DNA of 64,000 nucleotides. Origin: a virus. The stretch lies in IMG/VR virus record IMGVR_UViG_3300042934_000619, positions 1-64,000 of that record, one strand, 5' to 3'. The translations under genes and the position numbers were made by a program. The notes beneath the pieces were generated by a model, which saw nothing but the letters and a program-made list of their open reading frames with translations, did no database searches and had not been told where the DNA came from. Positions 49,422 to 63,145 of this stretch are shown here, one piece after another (the first letter of the stretch is position 1; the number at the start of each line of letters is the position of its first letter).

Positions 49422-49522
49422 GGGCGGGTAGCTCAATGGGCGCATGAGGAGGTGGCCACCTTCGATTGCATATGCCGATGGTAGAGCGCCGGAGGTTGCG
49501 GGTTCGAGTCCCGTCCCGTCCA
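49422..49522 (+). ncRNA. tRNA-like RNA: Ala-identity acceptor, 49-nt D-loop, no anticodon arm
   Basis: GGGCGGG/CCCGTCC-A (G3-U70, A73), TAGCTC...GAGC, GCGGG-TTCGAGT-CCCGT; only 10 nt between D and T stems. Confidence 0.75.
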
Positions 49523-59521: not shown

Positions 59522-59596
59522 AGCGGGATAGCGCAGTTCGGTTAGCGCGCCGGGGCCATGACTCGGAGGTCGCAGGTTCAAATCCTGCTCCCGCAA
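59522..59596 (+). tRNA. tRNA-Met (CAT) with atypical anticodon loop
   Basis: Cloverleaf; A1:A72 mismatch; loop GC-CAT-GA; GCAGG-TTCAAAT-CCTGC. Confidence 0.8.
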
Positions 59597-59992: not shown

Positions 59993-60022
59993 TTGACCTT
60001 GAGGGCGGGGACCCGATAGGTT
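59993..60022 (+). promoter_or_regulatory. HrdB-type promoter for the Y-RNA/ro operon
   Basis: TTGACC-N18-TAGGTT. Confidence 0.65.
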
Positions 60023-60080
60023 GAACACATCGAACGACAGGTGCGAAGGGTACAGCTGCTTCTTTCGTTCGGAAGTTTTT

Positions 60081-60217
60081 CTGTCTGGTGCGCAGACGAC
60101 GGATACTTCACTGTTAATGAAGAGGTCCGGGGTTCGAGTCCCCGCCCGCTGGTAAAAAGGTGGGTAGCTCAGTTGGTAGAGCACTTACGTTTCCGTTGTC
60201 GACTTGATCTCAGACAG
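60081..60217 (+). ncRNA. Y-RNA-like element 1 with permuted tRNA-Asn(GTT) domain
   Basis: Terminal stem CTGTCTG/CAGACAG; GTGCGCAG...TGATCT; arm order anticodon, T, acceptor hairpin, D. Confidence 0.85.
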
Positions 60218-60237
60218 TTCAATTCAAAAGTGCGCAA

Positions 60238-60312
60238 GCGTCCGGTGCGAAGGCAACGACGGCTACTTCTTTTGGTGAAATCACGCCGTCACGCCGTACT
60301 GATCTCGGACGC
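60238..60312 (+). ncRNA. Y-RNA-like element 2 (short, no tRNA domain)
   Basis: GCGTCCG/CGGACGC stem; GTGCGAAG, TACTTC, TGATCT. Confidence 0.75.
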
Positions 60313-60321
60313 GTACAACTT

Positions 60322-60461
60322 GTGCCTGGTGCGCAGATGAGGAGTTCTTCGCCTTGGGAGCGGGAGGTCGCGGGTTCAAATCCCGTTCGGTCGGCAGAGC
60401 TGACCGGTAGCTCAGTCTGGAAGAGCGCCTACGATCGCCTCGTCGACTTGATCTCAGGCAC
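60322..60461 (+). ncRNA. Y-RNA-like element 3 with permuted tRNA-Pro(TGG) domain
   Basis: GTGCCTG/CAGGCAC stem; TTCGC-CTTGGGA-GCGGG, T-arm, acceptor hairpin, D-arm. Confidence 0.85.
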
Positions 60462-60471
60462 GAAAATCAGA

Positions 60472-60592
60472 TGTCCGGTGCGCAGGACGACGCGTTCATC
60501 GATGGTTCGACCCCACCCGGGAGTCCCTCGCAAGAGGCTCGCTCCTGTTGCCCACTTGGGGGCAGCTCGCGTTTCCGATCTGATCTCGGACA
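60472..60592 (+). ncRNA. Y-RNA-like element 4 (YrlA-type, T/acceptor/D arms, no anticodon arm)
   Basis: TGTCCG/CGGACA stem; GGTTCGACCC T-loop; conserved flanking motifs. Confidence 0.78.
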
Positions 60593-60598
60593 GTACAA

Positions 60599-60750
60599 GG
60601 GTGCGTAGCTCAGAAGGTAGAGCGGCCCGAAAACGGACGGGCGGCGTGTCGAGACGGTTGCGGATGCACCGAATGGCTCTCGCAGGGTCTGTAGGGAAGC
60701 GCGTTTTCCAAGCTCGGCTCACGGCGCGGGTTCGAGTCCCGTCGCATCCA
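60599..60750 (+). ncRNA. tRNA-like RNA: Ala-identity acceptor, 8-nt anticodon loop, roughly 80-nt variable-arm insert
   Basis: GGGTGCG/CGCATCC-A (G3-U70, A73), TAGCTCAGAAGGTAGAGC, GCGGG-TTCGAGT-CCCGT. Confidence 0.75.
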
Positions 60751-60863
60751 CGGCACATAATCGGCTCCGACGTCCCTACTCGACTTCAGTCGTCGGAGAA
60801 ACGAGGACTCTGGCATTGACGATGGTTATGTCCTCGTTGCCCCGGCGCAAGCCGGGGTTACCC

Positions 60864-60938
60864 GGGAGGCCCTGGCCAGGCACACGGCTAAAACACCGGC
60901 GCACCCGGTGCGAGACGGTTCAAGTCCGTCAACTCCCA
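60864..60938 (+). tRNA. degenerate tRNA-Cys(GCA)-like element
   Basis: CACCG-GCGCACC-CGGTG, GACGG-TTCAAGT-CCGTC; acceptor only 5 bp. Confidence 0.4.
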
Positions 60939-60940
60939 CT

Positions 60941-61027
60941 GGTTCCTGGTGCGAAGCCACCACGGGTACTTCATTTCTCTCTCAAAGAAACCCGAACCCC
61001 GTATCGGCACCCCTGATCTCAGGAACC
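60941..61027 (+). ncRNA. Y-RNA-like element 5 (short, pyrimidine-rich loop)
   Basis: GGTTCCTG/CAGGAACC stem; GTGCGAAG, TACTTC, TGATCT; immediately upstream of ro. Confidence 0.78.
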
Positions 61028-61073
61028 GCATGACCACCGGCACGACCGGTGCGACAGGAAGGAAGATGGAGAC

Positions 61074-62756
61074 ATGGCGCGCTTCAACTCGCGTGGACAC
61101 CGGGCGAAGCCTGCGGTGGCGACGGTAAGCAGTCCGATCGGTACTGCCACGAAGAAGGCGAACACCCGTACGTTCGAAGGCGGCGCGGGATACACGCGTG
61201 ATGCCAAGACGGAGCTGTTCCTGCGTGCGACCGGTGCGTTCCACGGCGGCGAGGGCAGCTTCTACGAGTCCGCCGACAAGCGCGACAACCGGCTTCGTGA
61301 GCTGGTACGTACGATCGCGATCGAAGACCCGGACTGGGGATTCGAGTTCGCGCGCTGGCTCCGGTCCGAGGGTCACATGCGCACGGCATCGCTGATGTTC
61401 GCCGTCGAGTACGTGCACGAGCGACTCGATGCGGAAGCGCAGGAGCCGCGCACCACCAAGTACACCAACCGTCAGATCATCGACGTCGTATGCCAGCGTC
61501 CCGACGAGCCTGGCGAGATCCTCGCGATCTGGACGGCGTGGTACGGGCGGAACATCCCGCAGTCGGTCAAGCGCGGCGTCGCCGACGCGGTTCGGCGTCT
61601 GTACAGCGAGCGCTCGCTGCTCAAGTACGACACGGACTCGAAGGCGTACCGCTTCGCCGACGTGCTGGATCTGACGCACCCGACGCCGTCCCCCGAGAAG
61701 GCCGCATGGCAGGGCCTGCTGTTCTCGTACGCCCTCAACCGGCGGCACGGACGTGGGGATGACATCCCCAGCACGCTGGATATCATCCGCAACAACGCCT
61801 CGTTCCGAGCGCGGGCGGCTGAGACGCACTCGTTGCTGTGCTCGCCGGACGCTCTGCGTGCAGCGGGCATGACGTGGGAGGACGCGCTGTCCCTCGCGGG
61901 CCAAGTAGGCGTCGACAAGCGCAAGGTCTGGGAGGCCATGATCCCCTCCATGGGGATCATGGCGCTGATCCGCAACCTGCGGAACTTCGACCAGGCTGGC
62001 GTCTCCGACGAGGTGGCCATGACGGTCATGGAGCGCCTGGCCAACCCCGAGGAGATCGCCCGGTCCAAGCAGTTCCCGTTCCGGTTCCTCGCCGCGCACC
62101 GCGCGACCAAGGACTCCCTGCGGTGGGCGTGGCCGCTGGAGCAGGCGCTTGGTCACTCGCTGGTCAACGTCCCCCGGCTCGACGGCCGGACGCTGATCCT
62201 CGTCGACCGGTCGCCGTCCATGTTCCCGGAGTACGACCACTGGTTCCCGACGCTGAAGAAGTCGGACATCAGCCGCGCCGACCAGGCTGCGGTGTTCGGC
62301 GCCGCGCTGGCCGTCCGTGCAGAGCAGCCGACGCTCGTGGAGTTCGGCGGCGGCTCGCGGGTGATCACCTTCCAGCGCGGTACGTCCGTGCTGAAGCTGG
62401 TCGACAAGTTCTACCGGGACCCGGGTACGGACATCCCGAGCGCGGTGAAGAAGCATTACGACGGGCACGACCGGGTCGTCATCCTCACCGACGAGCAGAC
62501 CCGCCCCGGGTCCCTTCCGTCGAACATGTGGCGGAGCTACGGTGGCATGCGTGAGACGGAGGTCAACGACCTCGTCCCGAAGCACGTCCCTGTATTCATG
62601 TGGAATTTCGCCGGTTACTCGGCGGCGGCCATGCCGTCCGGGAACGAGGCGCGGTTCCACCTCGGCGGACTCACCGACAAGGCATTCCAACTCATTCCGA
62701 TTCTGGAATCCGGAGTGAATGGCAGCTGGCCCTGGGAACTGGACAGCACACCCTGA
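61074..62756 (+). CDS. rsr: Ro60/Rsr TROVE-vWA RNA-binding protein
   Basis: FYESA..R, WLR....MRT, QRPDEPGE, KRGVADAV, LKYD, L.HP.P, ALIRNLRNF, SKQFPFRF; C-terminal vWA (LVDRS.SM, GTD, LTDEQ). Confidence 0.93.
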   Translation: MARFNSRGHRAKPAVATVSSPIGTATKKANTRTFEGGAGYTRDAKTELFLRATGAFHGGEGSFYESADKRDNRLRELVRTIAIEDPDWGFEFARWLRSEGHMRTASLMFAVEYVHERLDAEAQEPRTTKYTNRQIIDVVCQRPDEPGEILAIWTAWYGRNIPQSVKRGVADAVRRLYSERSLLKYDTDSKAYRFADVLDLTHPTPSPEKAAWQGLLFSYALNRRHGRGDDIPSTLDIIRNNASFRARAAETHSLLCSPDALRAAGMTWEDALSLAGQVGVDKRKVWEAMIPSMGIMALIRNLRNFDQAGVSDEVAMTVMERLANPEEIARSKQFPFRFLAAHRATKDSLRWAWPLEQALGHSLVNVPRLDGRTLILVDRSPSMFPEYDHWFPTLKKSDISRADQAAVFGAALAVRAEQPTLVEFGGGSRVITFQRGTSVLKLVDKFYRDPGTDIPSAVKKHYDGHDRVVILTDEQTRPGSLPSNMWRSYGGMRETEVNDLVPKHVPVFMWNFAGYSAAAMPSGNEARFHLGGLTDKAFQLIPILESGVNGSWPWELDSTP

Positions 62757-62960: not shown

Positions 62961-63034
62961 GACCTCGTAGCTCAGTTGGATAGAGCGGTGGATTCCTAAT
63001 CCGCAGGTCGCAGGTTCGAGTCCTGCCGTGGTCA
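62961..63034 (+). tRNA. tRNA-Arg (CCT)
   Basis: Canonical cloverleaf, loop TT-CCT-AA. Confidence 0.93.
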
Positions 63035-63035
63035 C

Positions 63036-63109
63036 GGACGCGTAGCCCAATTGGTAGAGGCGTCTGGCTCAGGTCCAGAAGGTTGGGGGTTCGAATCCCT
63101 CCGTGTCCA
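63036..63109 (+). tRNA. tRNA-Leu (CAG), short variable loop
   Basis: Cloverleaf, loop CT-CAG-GT, A73. Confidence 0.85.
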
Positions 63110-63145
63110 CTTGCTTCACCGGGACAGTCGAAGGAGATATGGCAA

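What the first reader, a model, noticed from the sequence alone, without database searches (positions are those of the whole stretch)
59993..62756. Ro60 operon led by an array of five modular Y-like RNAs sharing one handle but carrying different cargo domains
Seen: after a TTGACC-18-TAGGTT promoter, five elements (60081, 60238, 60322, 60472, 60941) each have a different, fully paired terminal stem, then GTGCG(C/A)AG on the 5' side, T(A/T)C(T/A)TC after a second stem, and TGATCTC on the 3' side, which is compensatory variation within one locus. Cargo differs: permuted tRNA-Asn, short loop, permuted tRNA-Pro, anticodon-less T/acceptor/D module, pyrimidine-rich loop. A 5'-half relic sits near 60035. 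The TROVE gene follows directly. Established: bacterial Ro (Rsr) binds Y RNAs encoded next to it, and YrlA RNAs mimic tRNA. Inference: a phage-encoded Ro RNP with interchangeable RNA adaptors, e.g. a decoy panel for different tRNA-targeting defence nucleases or tethers for different host enzymes. A five-member diversified array interleaved with other tRNA mimics is beyond what I know to be described.
Basis: partly seen in the sequence, partly recalled or inferred. Interest (0 to 1): 0.92.

Follow-up and report, generated by a model that had tools for sequence, protein, structure and literature searches.

The report
Phage Ro60 gene with Y-RNA array
A 102-kb actinobacterial phage carries a Ro60 RNA-binding ring protein gene preceded by five small RNA genes that share one Ro-binding "handle" but have different interiors; this is a large example of a known protein-RNA partnership, and such arrays turn out to be the rule in this group of phages and their hosts.

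Summary
Five elements (60081-60217, 60238-60312, 60322-60461, 60472-60593, 60941-61027) share a terminal stem that changes by compensatory substitutions, GGUGCG(A/C)AG, N(U/A)C(U/A)UC and UGAUCUC. They lie directly upstream of a TROVE/vWA Ro60 gene (61074-62756) in a complete phage genome.

A covariance model built from the five copies finds nothing else in the window. It finds 141 matches in 41 uncultured-phage Ro loci and 169 in 80 actinobacterial Ro loci. All are on the Ro strand and almost all lie just upstream of Ro.

So this is a Ro60/Y-RNA locus of the YrlA/YrlB kind:
- Two members are YrlA-type permuted tRNA mimics.
- One carries a T-arm plus hairpins.
- Two are short RNAs of classes conserved across distant phages.
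- A sixth, truncated copy follows the promoter.

Five members is at the high end, not unique: phage loci hold 1-6 and bacterial loci mostly 2-3. The "tRNA-Asn/Pro" identities are over-read. The hairpin is a conserved anticodon-loop mimic (C32 U33 N N U36 A37 A38, or G36 G37 A38) in which positions 34 and 35 vary freely.

The decoy-panel idea is untested. The same RNAs occur in bacterial chromosomes, which weakens it. This scan has noted similar multi-RNA Ro60 arrays on other phage DNA.

The parts
59994..60023 (+). Promoter-like element TTGACC, 18 nt, TAGGTT at the head of the array
   Evidence: Read. A counterpart sits at the same position before the first Y RNA in L013-L015. Not scored by the generic scan. 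Function inferred.
60031..60071 (+). Truncated sixth Y-like RNA. It keeps the terminal stem CGAACGA/UCGUUCG and the 5' handle GGUGCGAAG, but has lost stem 2, the cargo and the 3' handle.
   Evidence: Fold. Full-length orthologues with the same 5' end exist in L013-L015 (R1 matches at L013 1327-1399 and L015 1628-1697).
60081..60217 (+). E1, a YrlA-type Y RNA. It consists of the handle, a 5-bp hairpin with the anticodon-like loop CUGUUAA, the AGGUC variable loop, a T arm, a closed acceptor stem and a D arm.
   Evidence: Rfam YrlA 41.9 bits; fold; R1 147 bits; architecture supported by covariation in 106 homologues.
60238..60312 (+). E2, a short Y RNA with the UACUUC-N-UUGGUGAAAUCAC loop
   Evidence: Fold. 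The same loop motif is present in pSt2308, BRock and LuckySocke, with a variant (GGAUGAAAC) in Neville. BLAST similarity to about 16-20 other Ro loci.
60322..60461 (+). E3, a second YrlA-type Y RNA. Its anticodon-like loop CUUGGGA belongs to the G36 G37 A38 class.
   Evidence: Rfam YrlA 35.8 bits; R1 128 bits. It is 81.6% identical over 87 nt to the Gordonia phage VanLee element annotated as tRNA-Arg.
60472..60593 (+). E4, a Y RNA with the handle, a T-arm-like hairpin (GAUGG UUCGACC CCACC) and two further hairpins. No D arm is recognisable.
   Evidence: Fold. No Rfam match. No BLAST homologue in other Ro loci. Comparable in layout to M. smegmatis YrlB, which has a T arm (PMC4201824).
60599..60750 (+). 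Interleaved tRNA-like RNA without the Y handle. It has a 7-bp acceptor stem, D and T arms, a 5-bp stem with the invariant 8-nt loop AAAACGGA, and a conserved structured domain of about 75 nt in the variable-arm position.
   Evidence: Rfam tRNA 38.9 bits with a 95-nt insertion. Unannotated homologues in 13 Streptomyces phage records. 20 of 46 pairs show compensatory changes.
60863..60939 (+). Small cloverleaf-like RNA with a T arm GACGG UUCAAGU CCGUC, placed just before E5
   Evidence: 76-80% identical in L014 and L015. Consensus cloverleaf from only three sequences. Weak evidence.
60941..61027 (+). E5, a short Y RNA with the hairpin UUUCU CUCUCAA AGAAA followed by CCCGAAC
   Evidence: Fold. 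Class motif AAAG(A/G)AACCC(A/G)AAC is shared with Satis, VanLee, Neville and Rabbitrun. Orthologue in L015.
61035..61065 (+). Ro mRNA leader: hairpin CACCGG-CACGA-CCGGUG that overlaps a handle-like GGUGCGA next to the ribosome-binding site GGAAGGAAG
   Evidence: Read. Conserved in position in L013-L018. Any autoregulatory role is inference only.
61074..62756 (+). Ro60 (Rsr) orthologue, 560 aa, with a TROVE domain and a vWA domain carrying a DxSxS MIDAS motif
   Evidence: Pfam TROVE E=2.5e-21; PDB 9KOP/9L5Y phiLo Ro60 E=4.7e-26; translation; 41-65% identical to Ro genes in 43 phage contigs and 80 actinobacterial genomes.

Best explanation
This is the Ro60/Y-RNA system of an actinobacterial phage.

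One promoter probably drives a single transcript. It holds a truncated Y RNA, four Y RNAs, two other tRNA-like RNAs, a fifth Y RNA and the Ro60 mRNA, and the small RNAs are cut out of it.

Each Y RNA binds the outer face of the Ro60 ring through the shared handle. The handle is the terminal stem plus GGUGCG(A/C)AG opposite UGAUCUC, and it resembles the GGUCCGAAGG / CUUGACUAG helix of animal Y RNAs.

The variable interior of each RNA then sets what the particle touches:
- Two interiors are whole circularly permuted tRNA look-alikes. They should attract tRNA-binding enzymes.
- One carries a T arm.
- Two are short hairpin RNAs. They could tether an exoribonuclease such as host PNPase, as shown for Deinococcus Rsr and for Thermus phage phiLo Ro60.

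The net effect would be to redirect host structured-RNA decay or quality control during infection.

Shown here: the sequence and structure family, its strict linkage to Ro genes, and the conserved classes.
Inferred: transcription, processing, Ro binding, partners and benefit to the phage.
For: - Ro60 identity.
- Shared handle with compensatory terminal stems.
- Model R1, built from the five copies, gives 5 matches in the window and none elsewhere in 75 kb of this genome. It gives 141 matches in 41 phage Ro loci and 169 in 80 bacterial Ro loci, all on the Ro strand.
- Covariation in 106 distinct tRNA-like members: 91.4% paired, 32 of 39 pairs compensatory, 0 of 500 shuffles as high, covariation score 0.489 against 0.075 or less when slid.
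- Each phage lineage has its own handle variant, shared by all its array members. Examples are GAUGCG-N-AG with UUUUCUAG in the BRock group and GGUGCGA with UGGUUAACC in Satis. This fits co-evolution with the cognate Ro.
- Member classes are conserved across phages whose Ro proteins are only about 45% identical.
- Published precedents: YrlA and YrlB bind Rsr (PMC4201824). YrlA folds like tRNA (10.1101/312249). phiLo Ro60 binds two upstream Y-like RNAs and host PNPase (PMC12135203).
Against: - There are no expression or binding data for this phage.
- Rfam YrlA scores for E1 and E3 are below the family threshold, and E2, E4 and E5 match no Rfam family.
- The phage genome has no RtcB, RNA ligase or CCA-adding enzyme, so any link to RNA repair would need host enzymes.
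- The exact pairing inside the handle could not be made consistent across lineages.
- Partners of the short classes are guesses.
Confidence: 0.8

Rival explanations
1. The array is a decoy panel. The tRNA-like and anticodon-loop-like modules soak up host tRNA-cleaving defence nucleases or tRNA-modifying enzymes, so that real tRNAs survive infection. Ro60 would stabilise or present the decoys.
For: - E1, E3 and E5 carry 5-bp hairpins with 7-nt loops that have U33 and A37/G37.
- 91 of 113 homologous hairpins keep U33 and a purine at 37, and the hairpin is supported by covariation.
- The two loop classes match the determinants I recall for t6A37 (U36 A37 A38) and for m1G37 (G36 G37). This comes from my own knowledge and was not tested.
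- The phage has only three ordinary tRNA genes.
- Phage arrays are larger than bacterial ones: about 3.4 against 2.1 R1 matches per locus.
Against: - The same hairpins with the same loop consensus occur in 55 bacterial chromosomal Y RNAs, so they are not a phage-specific counter-measure.
- Positions 34 and 35 vary freely, even between close relatives: AUGCUAA in Neville against AUUUUAA in Rabbitrun. This is not what a mimic of one target tRNA predicts, although it could fit an arms race.
- There is no free CCA end.
- No tRNA-directed nuclease or repair gene lies nearby.
Confidence: 0.12
2. The elements act mainly in cis, as a long structured leader through which Ro60 controls its own synthesis, rather than as free RNAs.
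For: - No terminator separates the array from the Ro gene.
- A handle-like GGUGCGA sits in a hairpin beside the ribosome-binding site. It is conserved in position in the six closest phage loci.
Against: - In L041 and L053 the arrays lie downstream of Ro, which a leader cannot do.
- Conserved cargo classes and a full tRNA fold are not needed for feedback.
- Homologous RNAs in M. smegmatis and Salmonella accumulate as free RNAs bound to Rsr (PMC4201824).
- Enrichment of the leader motif over all loci is modest: 8 of 41 phage loci against about 4 expected.
Confidence: 0.06
3. The elements are decayed or rearranged tRNA genes in a phage tRNA cluster and have no tie to Ro60.
For: - The locus lies between ordinary tRNA genes.
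- Parts of homologous elements have been annotated as tRNA-Arg and tRNA-Ser in GenBank phage records.
Against: - There is strict linkage to Ro genes and to the Ro strand in more than 120 loci.
- The shared non-tRNA handle is also present on members with no tRNA parts.
- All helices show strong covariation.
Confidence: 0.02

Closest known systems
YrlA and YrlB Y RNAs with Rsr (Ro60) in Mycobacterium smegmatis, Salmonella and mycobacteriophages (Chen et al. 2014, PMC4201824; Rfam RF02553)
   Same: - The RNAs are encoded within 1 kb of Ro on the same strand.
- The 5' and 3' ends pair into a stem that carries a CG(A/C)A-type Ro motif.
- E1 and E3 have the T arm, closed acceptor stem and D arm of YrlA.
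- E4 has a T arm, like M. smegmatis YrlB.
- More than one Y RNA per locus.
   Different: - Five intact members plus a relic, against the two described per species.
- E1 and E3 score below the Rfam threshold.
- E2 and E5 belong to short classes that I did not find described.
- The stem-loop that the paper calls 'V' (variable arm) here has the size and loop signature of an anticodon arm and is followed by a 4-5 nt variable loop.
Thermus phage phiLo Ro60 with Yrl1 and Yrl2 (NAR 2025, PMC12135203; PDB 9KOP, 9L5Y)
   Same: - A phage-encoded Ro60, the best solved-structure match of this protein.
- Y-like RNAs lie upstream of the gene.
- That paper shows binding to the RNAs and to host PNPase.
   Different: - Two RNAs there, five here.
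- About 28% protein identity.
- No tRNA-like module is reported there in the passages I read.
Deinococcus radiodurans Rsr-Yrn1-PNPase (RYPER) particle
   Same: The Y RNA is modular: one part binds Ro and the other tethers an effector. Several small RNAs are encoded upstream of rsr (PMC4201824).
   Different: Yrn1 belongs to a separate lineage with a different arrangement of tRNA-like parts. The PNPase link is not tested here.
Animal Y RNAs (two to four paralogues per species)
   Same: The overall design is the same. The handle GGUGCGAAGG / CUUGAUCUC resembles GGUCCGAAGG / CUUGACUAG, a comparison made from my memory of the human Y1 sequence.
   Different: No match to Rfam Y_RNA at E up to 10. 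The interiors are unrelated.

Membership tests
Ro60 / TROVE (Rsr) proteins | TROVE (HEAT-repeat ring) domain | tested here: met
   Pfam PF05731, E=2.5e-21, 76.8 bits against a cut-off of 23
Ro60 / TROVE (Rsr) proteins | C-terminal vWA domain with a MIDAS motif | tested here: met
   The alignment to phiLo Ro60 covers residues 265-550. DRSPS (DxSxS) is present in the translation.
Ro60 / TROVE (Rsr) proteins | Ring fold that binds Y RNA on its outer surface | not tested
   No structure prediction or binding assay was done.
Y RNAs in general | 5' and 3' ends pair into a stem with a conserved, bulged Ro-binding helix | tested here: met
   Folds. Compensatory terminal stems and an invariant handle.
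Y RNAs in general | Encoded next to, and on the same strand as, a Ro60 gene | tested here: met
   All 310 R1 matches outside the window are on the Ro strand, and nearly all are within 1.9 kb upstream.
Y RNAs in general | Physically bound by Ro60 | not testable with these tools
   Needs immunoprecipitation or a gel-shift assay.
YrlA (Rfam RF02553) | Score at or above the Rfam gathering threshold (69 bits) | tested here: not met
   E1 41.9 bits, E3 35.8 bits, and no match for E2, E4 or E5. Homologues in eight GenBank phages also score 28-47 bits.
YrlA (Rfam RF02553) | T arm, closed acceptor stem-loop and D arm in permuted order | tested here: met
   Met for E1 and E3 only. Rfam alignments. T stem 99.3%, acceptor 85.9% and D stem 99.5% paired across 106 homologues.
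YrlA (Rfam RF02553) | GNCGAAN0-1G motif on the 5' strand | tested here: inconclusive
   Here the motif is (G/A)UGCG(A/C/U)AG. It shares the CGAA/CGCA core but not the first G.
Functional (decoding) tRNA-Asn or tRNA-Pro | Free acceptor end with a standard 5'-to-3' cloverleaf order, and an anticodon conserved among orthologues | tested here: not met
   ARAGORN does not call them. The acceptor stem is closed by a loop. Positions 34 and 35 vary freely among 104 orthologous hairpins.

The most novel reading that the evidence does not exclude
Actinobacterial phages and their hosts carry at least four anciently conserved, functionally distinct classes of Y RNA on one Ro60 handle. These include two classes of complete permuted tRNA whose anticodon-arm mimics copy the two universal position-37 signatures (U36 A37 A38 and G36 G37). 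The phage expands this set to five or six so that one Ro60 ring can be aimed at several host RNA enzymes at once, or can draw off tRNA-directed enzymes and nucleases during infection.
Probability: 0.2. Interest if true: 0.75.

Novelty: new variant of a known kind. Interest (0 to 1): 0.5.

Why it matters
Ro60/Y-RNA particles are conserved from bacteria to humans, yet what the variable part of bacterial Y RNAs binds is still largely unknown.

This locus and the 120-odd related loci gathered here add three things:
- The Ro handle marks a much larger RNA family than the current Rfam model finds.
- Arrays of 2-6 members are normal in this group.
- The members fall into a few conserved classes.

That gives a short, concrete list of RNA modules to use as bait for finding Ro60 effectors. 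It also gives a phage system in which single RNAs can be deleted.

There is a practical point as well. Parts of these RNAs are currently annotated in GenBank phage records as tRNAs, as small hypothetical proteins, or as the N-terminus of Ro.

Tried and rejected
- Rfam at gathering thresholds found only ordinary tRNAs. At E up to 10 there was no Y_RNA match, and YrlA matched only E1 and E3.
- A loose motif-plus-stem scan and a loose 5'-module pattern gave mostly noise. I do not use their counts.
- A stricter pattern undercounts, finding 3 of the window's 5. I treat it as a lower bound, and the covariance model replaces it.
- I could not write one base-pairing scheme for the inner handle that holds across all phage lineages.
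- I rejected the reading of E1 and E3 as tRNA-Asn and tRNA-Pro, because positions 34 and 35 are unconstrained in homologues.
- I rejected a general alanine identity (G3-U70) for the 60599-60750 tRNA-like RNA. At that pair only this window has G-U, and the other six homologues have U-A or C-G.
- RNA-repair partners (RtcB, RNA ligase, CCA-adding enzyme) were sought in the phage genome and not found.
- Neighbouring ORFs gave no informative Pfam hits.
- Two reviews by the Wolin laboratory (PMC10870794, PMC6047535) and the supplementary tables of Chen et al. 2014 were not available. I therefore cannot exclude that larger arrays are listed there.
Full report
**What is there**

The window is the first 64 kb of a single-contig virus record. 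The record is 102,442 bp with direct terminal repeats, is estimated complete, and has 64% G+C. DNA replication genes surround the locus: Prim-Pol, family A polymerase, SNF2 and RecD-like helicases, and a Cas4-like nuclease. The genome has only three ordinary tRNA genes: Met at 59522, and Arg-CCU and Leu-CAG at 62961-63110.

The ORF at 61074-62756 is a Ro60 orthologue:
- Pfam TROVE, E=2.5e-21.
- A DRSPS MIDAS motif in the vWA part.
- Best solved-structure match is the Ro60 of Thermus phage phiLo, E=4.7e-26.

**The five elements**

Their coordinates are 60081-60217 (E1), 60238-60312 (E2), 60322-60461 (E3), 60472-60593 (E4) and 60941-61027 (E5).

- Each has a 7-8 bp terminal stem of different sequence, then GGUGCG(A/C)AG, a second stem, N(U/A)C(U/A)UC, a variable interior, the return strand of the second stem, (C/U)UGAUCUC and the return strand of the terminal stem.
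- Folded alone, all five give the same base architecture.
- The strict 5' motif occurs six times in 60040-60948 and nowhere else on that strand of the window.
- On the alignment of the five, 98% of terminal-stem and handle cells pair and five of ten pairs changed on both sides. No shuffle reaches the observed covariation, and slid controls fall to 26-48% pairing.

**The relic and the promoter**

At 60031-60071 lies a 41-nt hairpin that keeps a terminal stem and GGUGCGAAG but lacks the rest. In the three closest phage contigs (L013-L015) the same position holds a complete Y-like RNA that begins with the same CGAACG(G/A)CAGGUGCGAAG. "Relic" is therefore the right word.

In those contigs the first RNA is preceded by TTGAC(G/A), a 16-nt spacer ending in GA, and then TAGTGT. 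The window has TTGACC, 18 nt and TAGGTT. A generic sigma-70 scan does not score this element. The promoter is plausible and conserved in position, but not demonstrated.

**Family-level test**

- In the window plus 11 kb downstream it finds only the five elements.
- In 41 uncultured-phage Ro loci from IMG/VR it finds 141 matches.
- In eight GenBank actinophage loci it finds 1-2 per locus, because their handles differ.
- In 80 actinobacterial chromosomal Ro loci it finds 169 matches.
- Every match is on the Ro strand. Almost all lie just upstream of Ro, except that in L041 and L053 the array is downstream.

My hand tally for the phage loci:

| R1 matches per locus | 1 | 2 | 3 | 4 | 5 | 6 |
|---|---|---|---|---|---|---|
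| Phage loci | 5 | 13 | 7 | 7 | 7 | 2 |

Bacterial loci mostly hold 2-3 matches. By eye, the eight GenBank phages hold 3-5 each, and each lineage has its own handle variant that all its members share. Five members is therefore high, but it is part of a continuum.

**Architecture and covariation**

I aligned 107 high-scoring tRNA-like members (106 distinct) to the model.
- 91.4% of cells pair.
- 32 of 39 pairs have compensatory changes.
- No shuffle reaches the observed values.
- The covariation score is 0.489, against at most 0.075 for slid partners.

Every helix is supported:

| Helix | Cells paired |
|---|---|
| Terminal stem | 98% |
| Handle pairs | 92% |
| Second stem | 85% |
| Hairpin before the variable loop | 82-88% |
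| T stem | 99% |
| Acceptor stem | 86% |
| D stem | 99.5% |

This alignment is fitted to the model, which favours the structure. Even so, the margin over the controls is large.

**What the cargos are**

E1 and E3 are YrlA-type RNAs. Rfam YrlA aligns their T arm, closed acceptor stem and D arm at 41.9 and 35.8 bits, below the 69-bit threshold.

Both also carry, straight after UACUUC or UUCUUC, a 5-bp hairpin with a 7-nt loop, followed by AGGUC and the T arm. That is the place and size of an anticodon arm plus variable loop.

Across 104 homologous hairpins, loop conservation is as follows:

| Loop position | Commonest base | Share |
|---|---|---|
| 32 | C | 77% |
| 33 | U | 90% |
| 34, 35 | any base | no base above 43% |
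| 36 | U | 68% |
| 37 | A | 72% |
| 38 | A | 90% |

A minority class has G36 G37 A38. Shifting the frame abolishes the signal. The hairpin is therefore a conserved anticodon-loop mimic, but not a mimic of a particular tRNA.

Chen et al. 2014 described this stem-loop as a less-conserved "V" arm, and Wang et al. 2018 state that Salmonella YrlA lacks an anticodon loop. The anticodon-arm reading for the actinobacterial and phage RNAs thus appears to be new, but it is a reinterpretation rather than a new object. The match of the two loop classes to the t6A37 and m1G37 determinants is from my own knowledge and is untested.

The other three members:
- **E2.** It shares its loop UUGGUGAAAUCAC with one array member in pSt2308, BRock and LuckySocke. 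Neville has a variant, GGAUGAAAC.
- **E5.** It shares AAAG(A/G)AACCC(A/G)AAC with members in Satis, VanLee, Neville and Rabbitrun.
- **E4.** It has a T-arm-like hairpin and two more hairpins, no D arm, and no detectable homologue.

The Ro proteins of these phages are only about 45% identical to this one. The classes are therefore old and presumably have distinct functions.

**Interleaved elements**

Between E4 and E5 lie two RNAs without the handle.
- **60599-60750.** This is a tRNA-like RNA. Its acceptor, anticodon-like, variable-arm-base and T stems all covary among seven phages. Its 8-nt loop AAAACGGA and a variable-arm domain of about 75 nt are nearly invariant. It occurs in 13 Streptomyces phage records, not always near Ro, and matches no Rfam family other than tRNA.
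- **60863-60939.** This is a small cloverleaf, conserved only in L014 and L015.

**Mechanism**

The best-supported reading is an ordinary Ro60/Y-RNA particle with an enlarged set of adaptors. The handle binds Ro, and the interiors choose partners. This follows from established work on Rsr-Yrn1-PNPase, on YrlA and YrlB, and on phiLo Ro60 with Yrl1/Yrl2 and host PNPase. Host Streptomyces Ro loci carry RNAs with the same handle, so cross-binding between phage and host components is possible.

The decoy idea stays open but is weakened, because bacterial chromosomes carry the same RNAs. The phage has no RNA-repair enzymes of its own.

**Novelty**

Already published: Ro60 in phages, Y RNAs next to it, tRNA mimicry, and more than one Y RNA per locus.

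Not found in the literature I could search:
- Arrays of 3-6 members.
- The short conserved classes.
- The anticodon-loop signature.
- A model that detects the handle itself.

This scan's earlier notes record comparable multi-RNA arrays beside Ro60-like genes in other, unrelated phages. I did not test those. I rate this locus a new variant of a known kind, of moderate interest.

Noticed in passing
window 60599-60750: A tRNA-like RNA with an invariant 8-nt loop AAAACGGA and a conserved structured domain of about 75 nt in the variable-arm position. It is present and unannotated in 13 Streptomyces phage records and matches no Rfam family other than tRNA. Function unknown. The G3-U70 pair seen here is not conserved in homologues.
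   Followed up: partly
window 61035-61065: The Ro mRNA leader has a hairpin carrying a handle-like GGUGCGA right beside the ribosome-binding site. It is conserved in position in the six closest phage loci (L013-L018). This may allow Ro60 to regulate its own translation.
   Followed up: partly
window 60863-60939: A small cloverleaf-like RNA with a good T arm but an odd D arm, conserved at 76-80% identity in L014 and L015 just before the E5 orthologue.
   Followed up: partly
L005 3204-3275; L004 3274-3347; L006 3423-3500; L008 3453-3500; L006 2963-3373: GenBank annotations overlie Y-like RNAs. VanLee tRNA-Arg(tct) and LuckySocke tRNA-Ser(gct) are pieces of YrlA-type RNAs. The Ro genes of Neville and Rabbitrun are annotated with starts that run into a fourth Y RNA. 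Neville genes 88-90 (small hypothetical proteins) cover the array.
   Followed up: partly
L003 5579-5742 and L004 5467-5699: Near-threshold matches to the manA RNA motif (49.7 and 47.8 bits against 55.2) between the two tRNA-Lys genes downstream of Ro in phages BRock and LuckySocke.
   Followed up: no
L041 5850-7537 and L053 5330-6095: In two phage contigs the Y-RNA array (4 and 5 model matches) lies downstream of the Ro gene instead of upstream.
   Followed up: no
window 60230-60238: A stray GUGCGCAAG in the spacer between E1 and E2, with no matching 3' handle or stem. It may be chance or a further remnant.
   Followed up: no
window 49422-49522: Rfam tRNA match of 39.4 bits spanning 101 nt, so a tRNA-like RNA with an insertion. 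ARAGORN does not call it.
   Followed up: no
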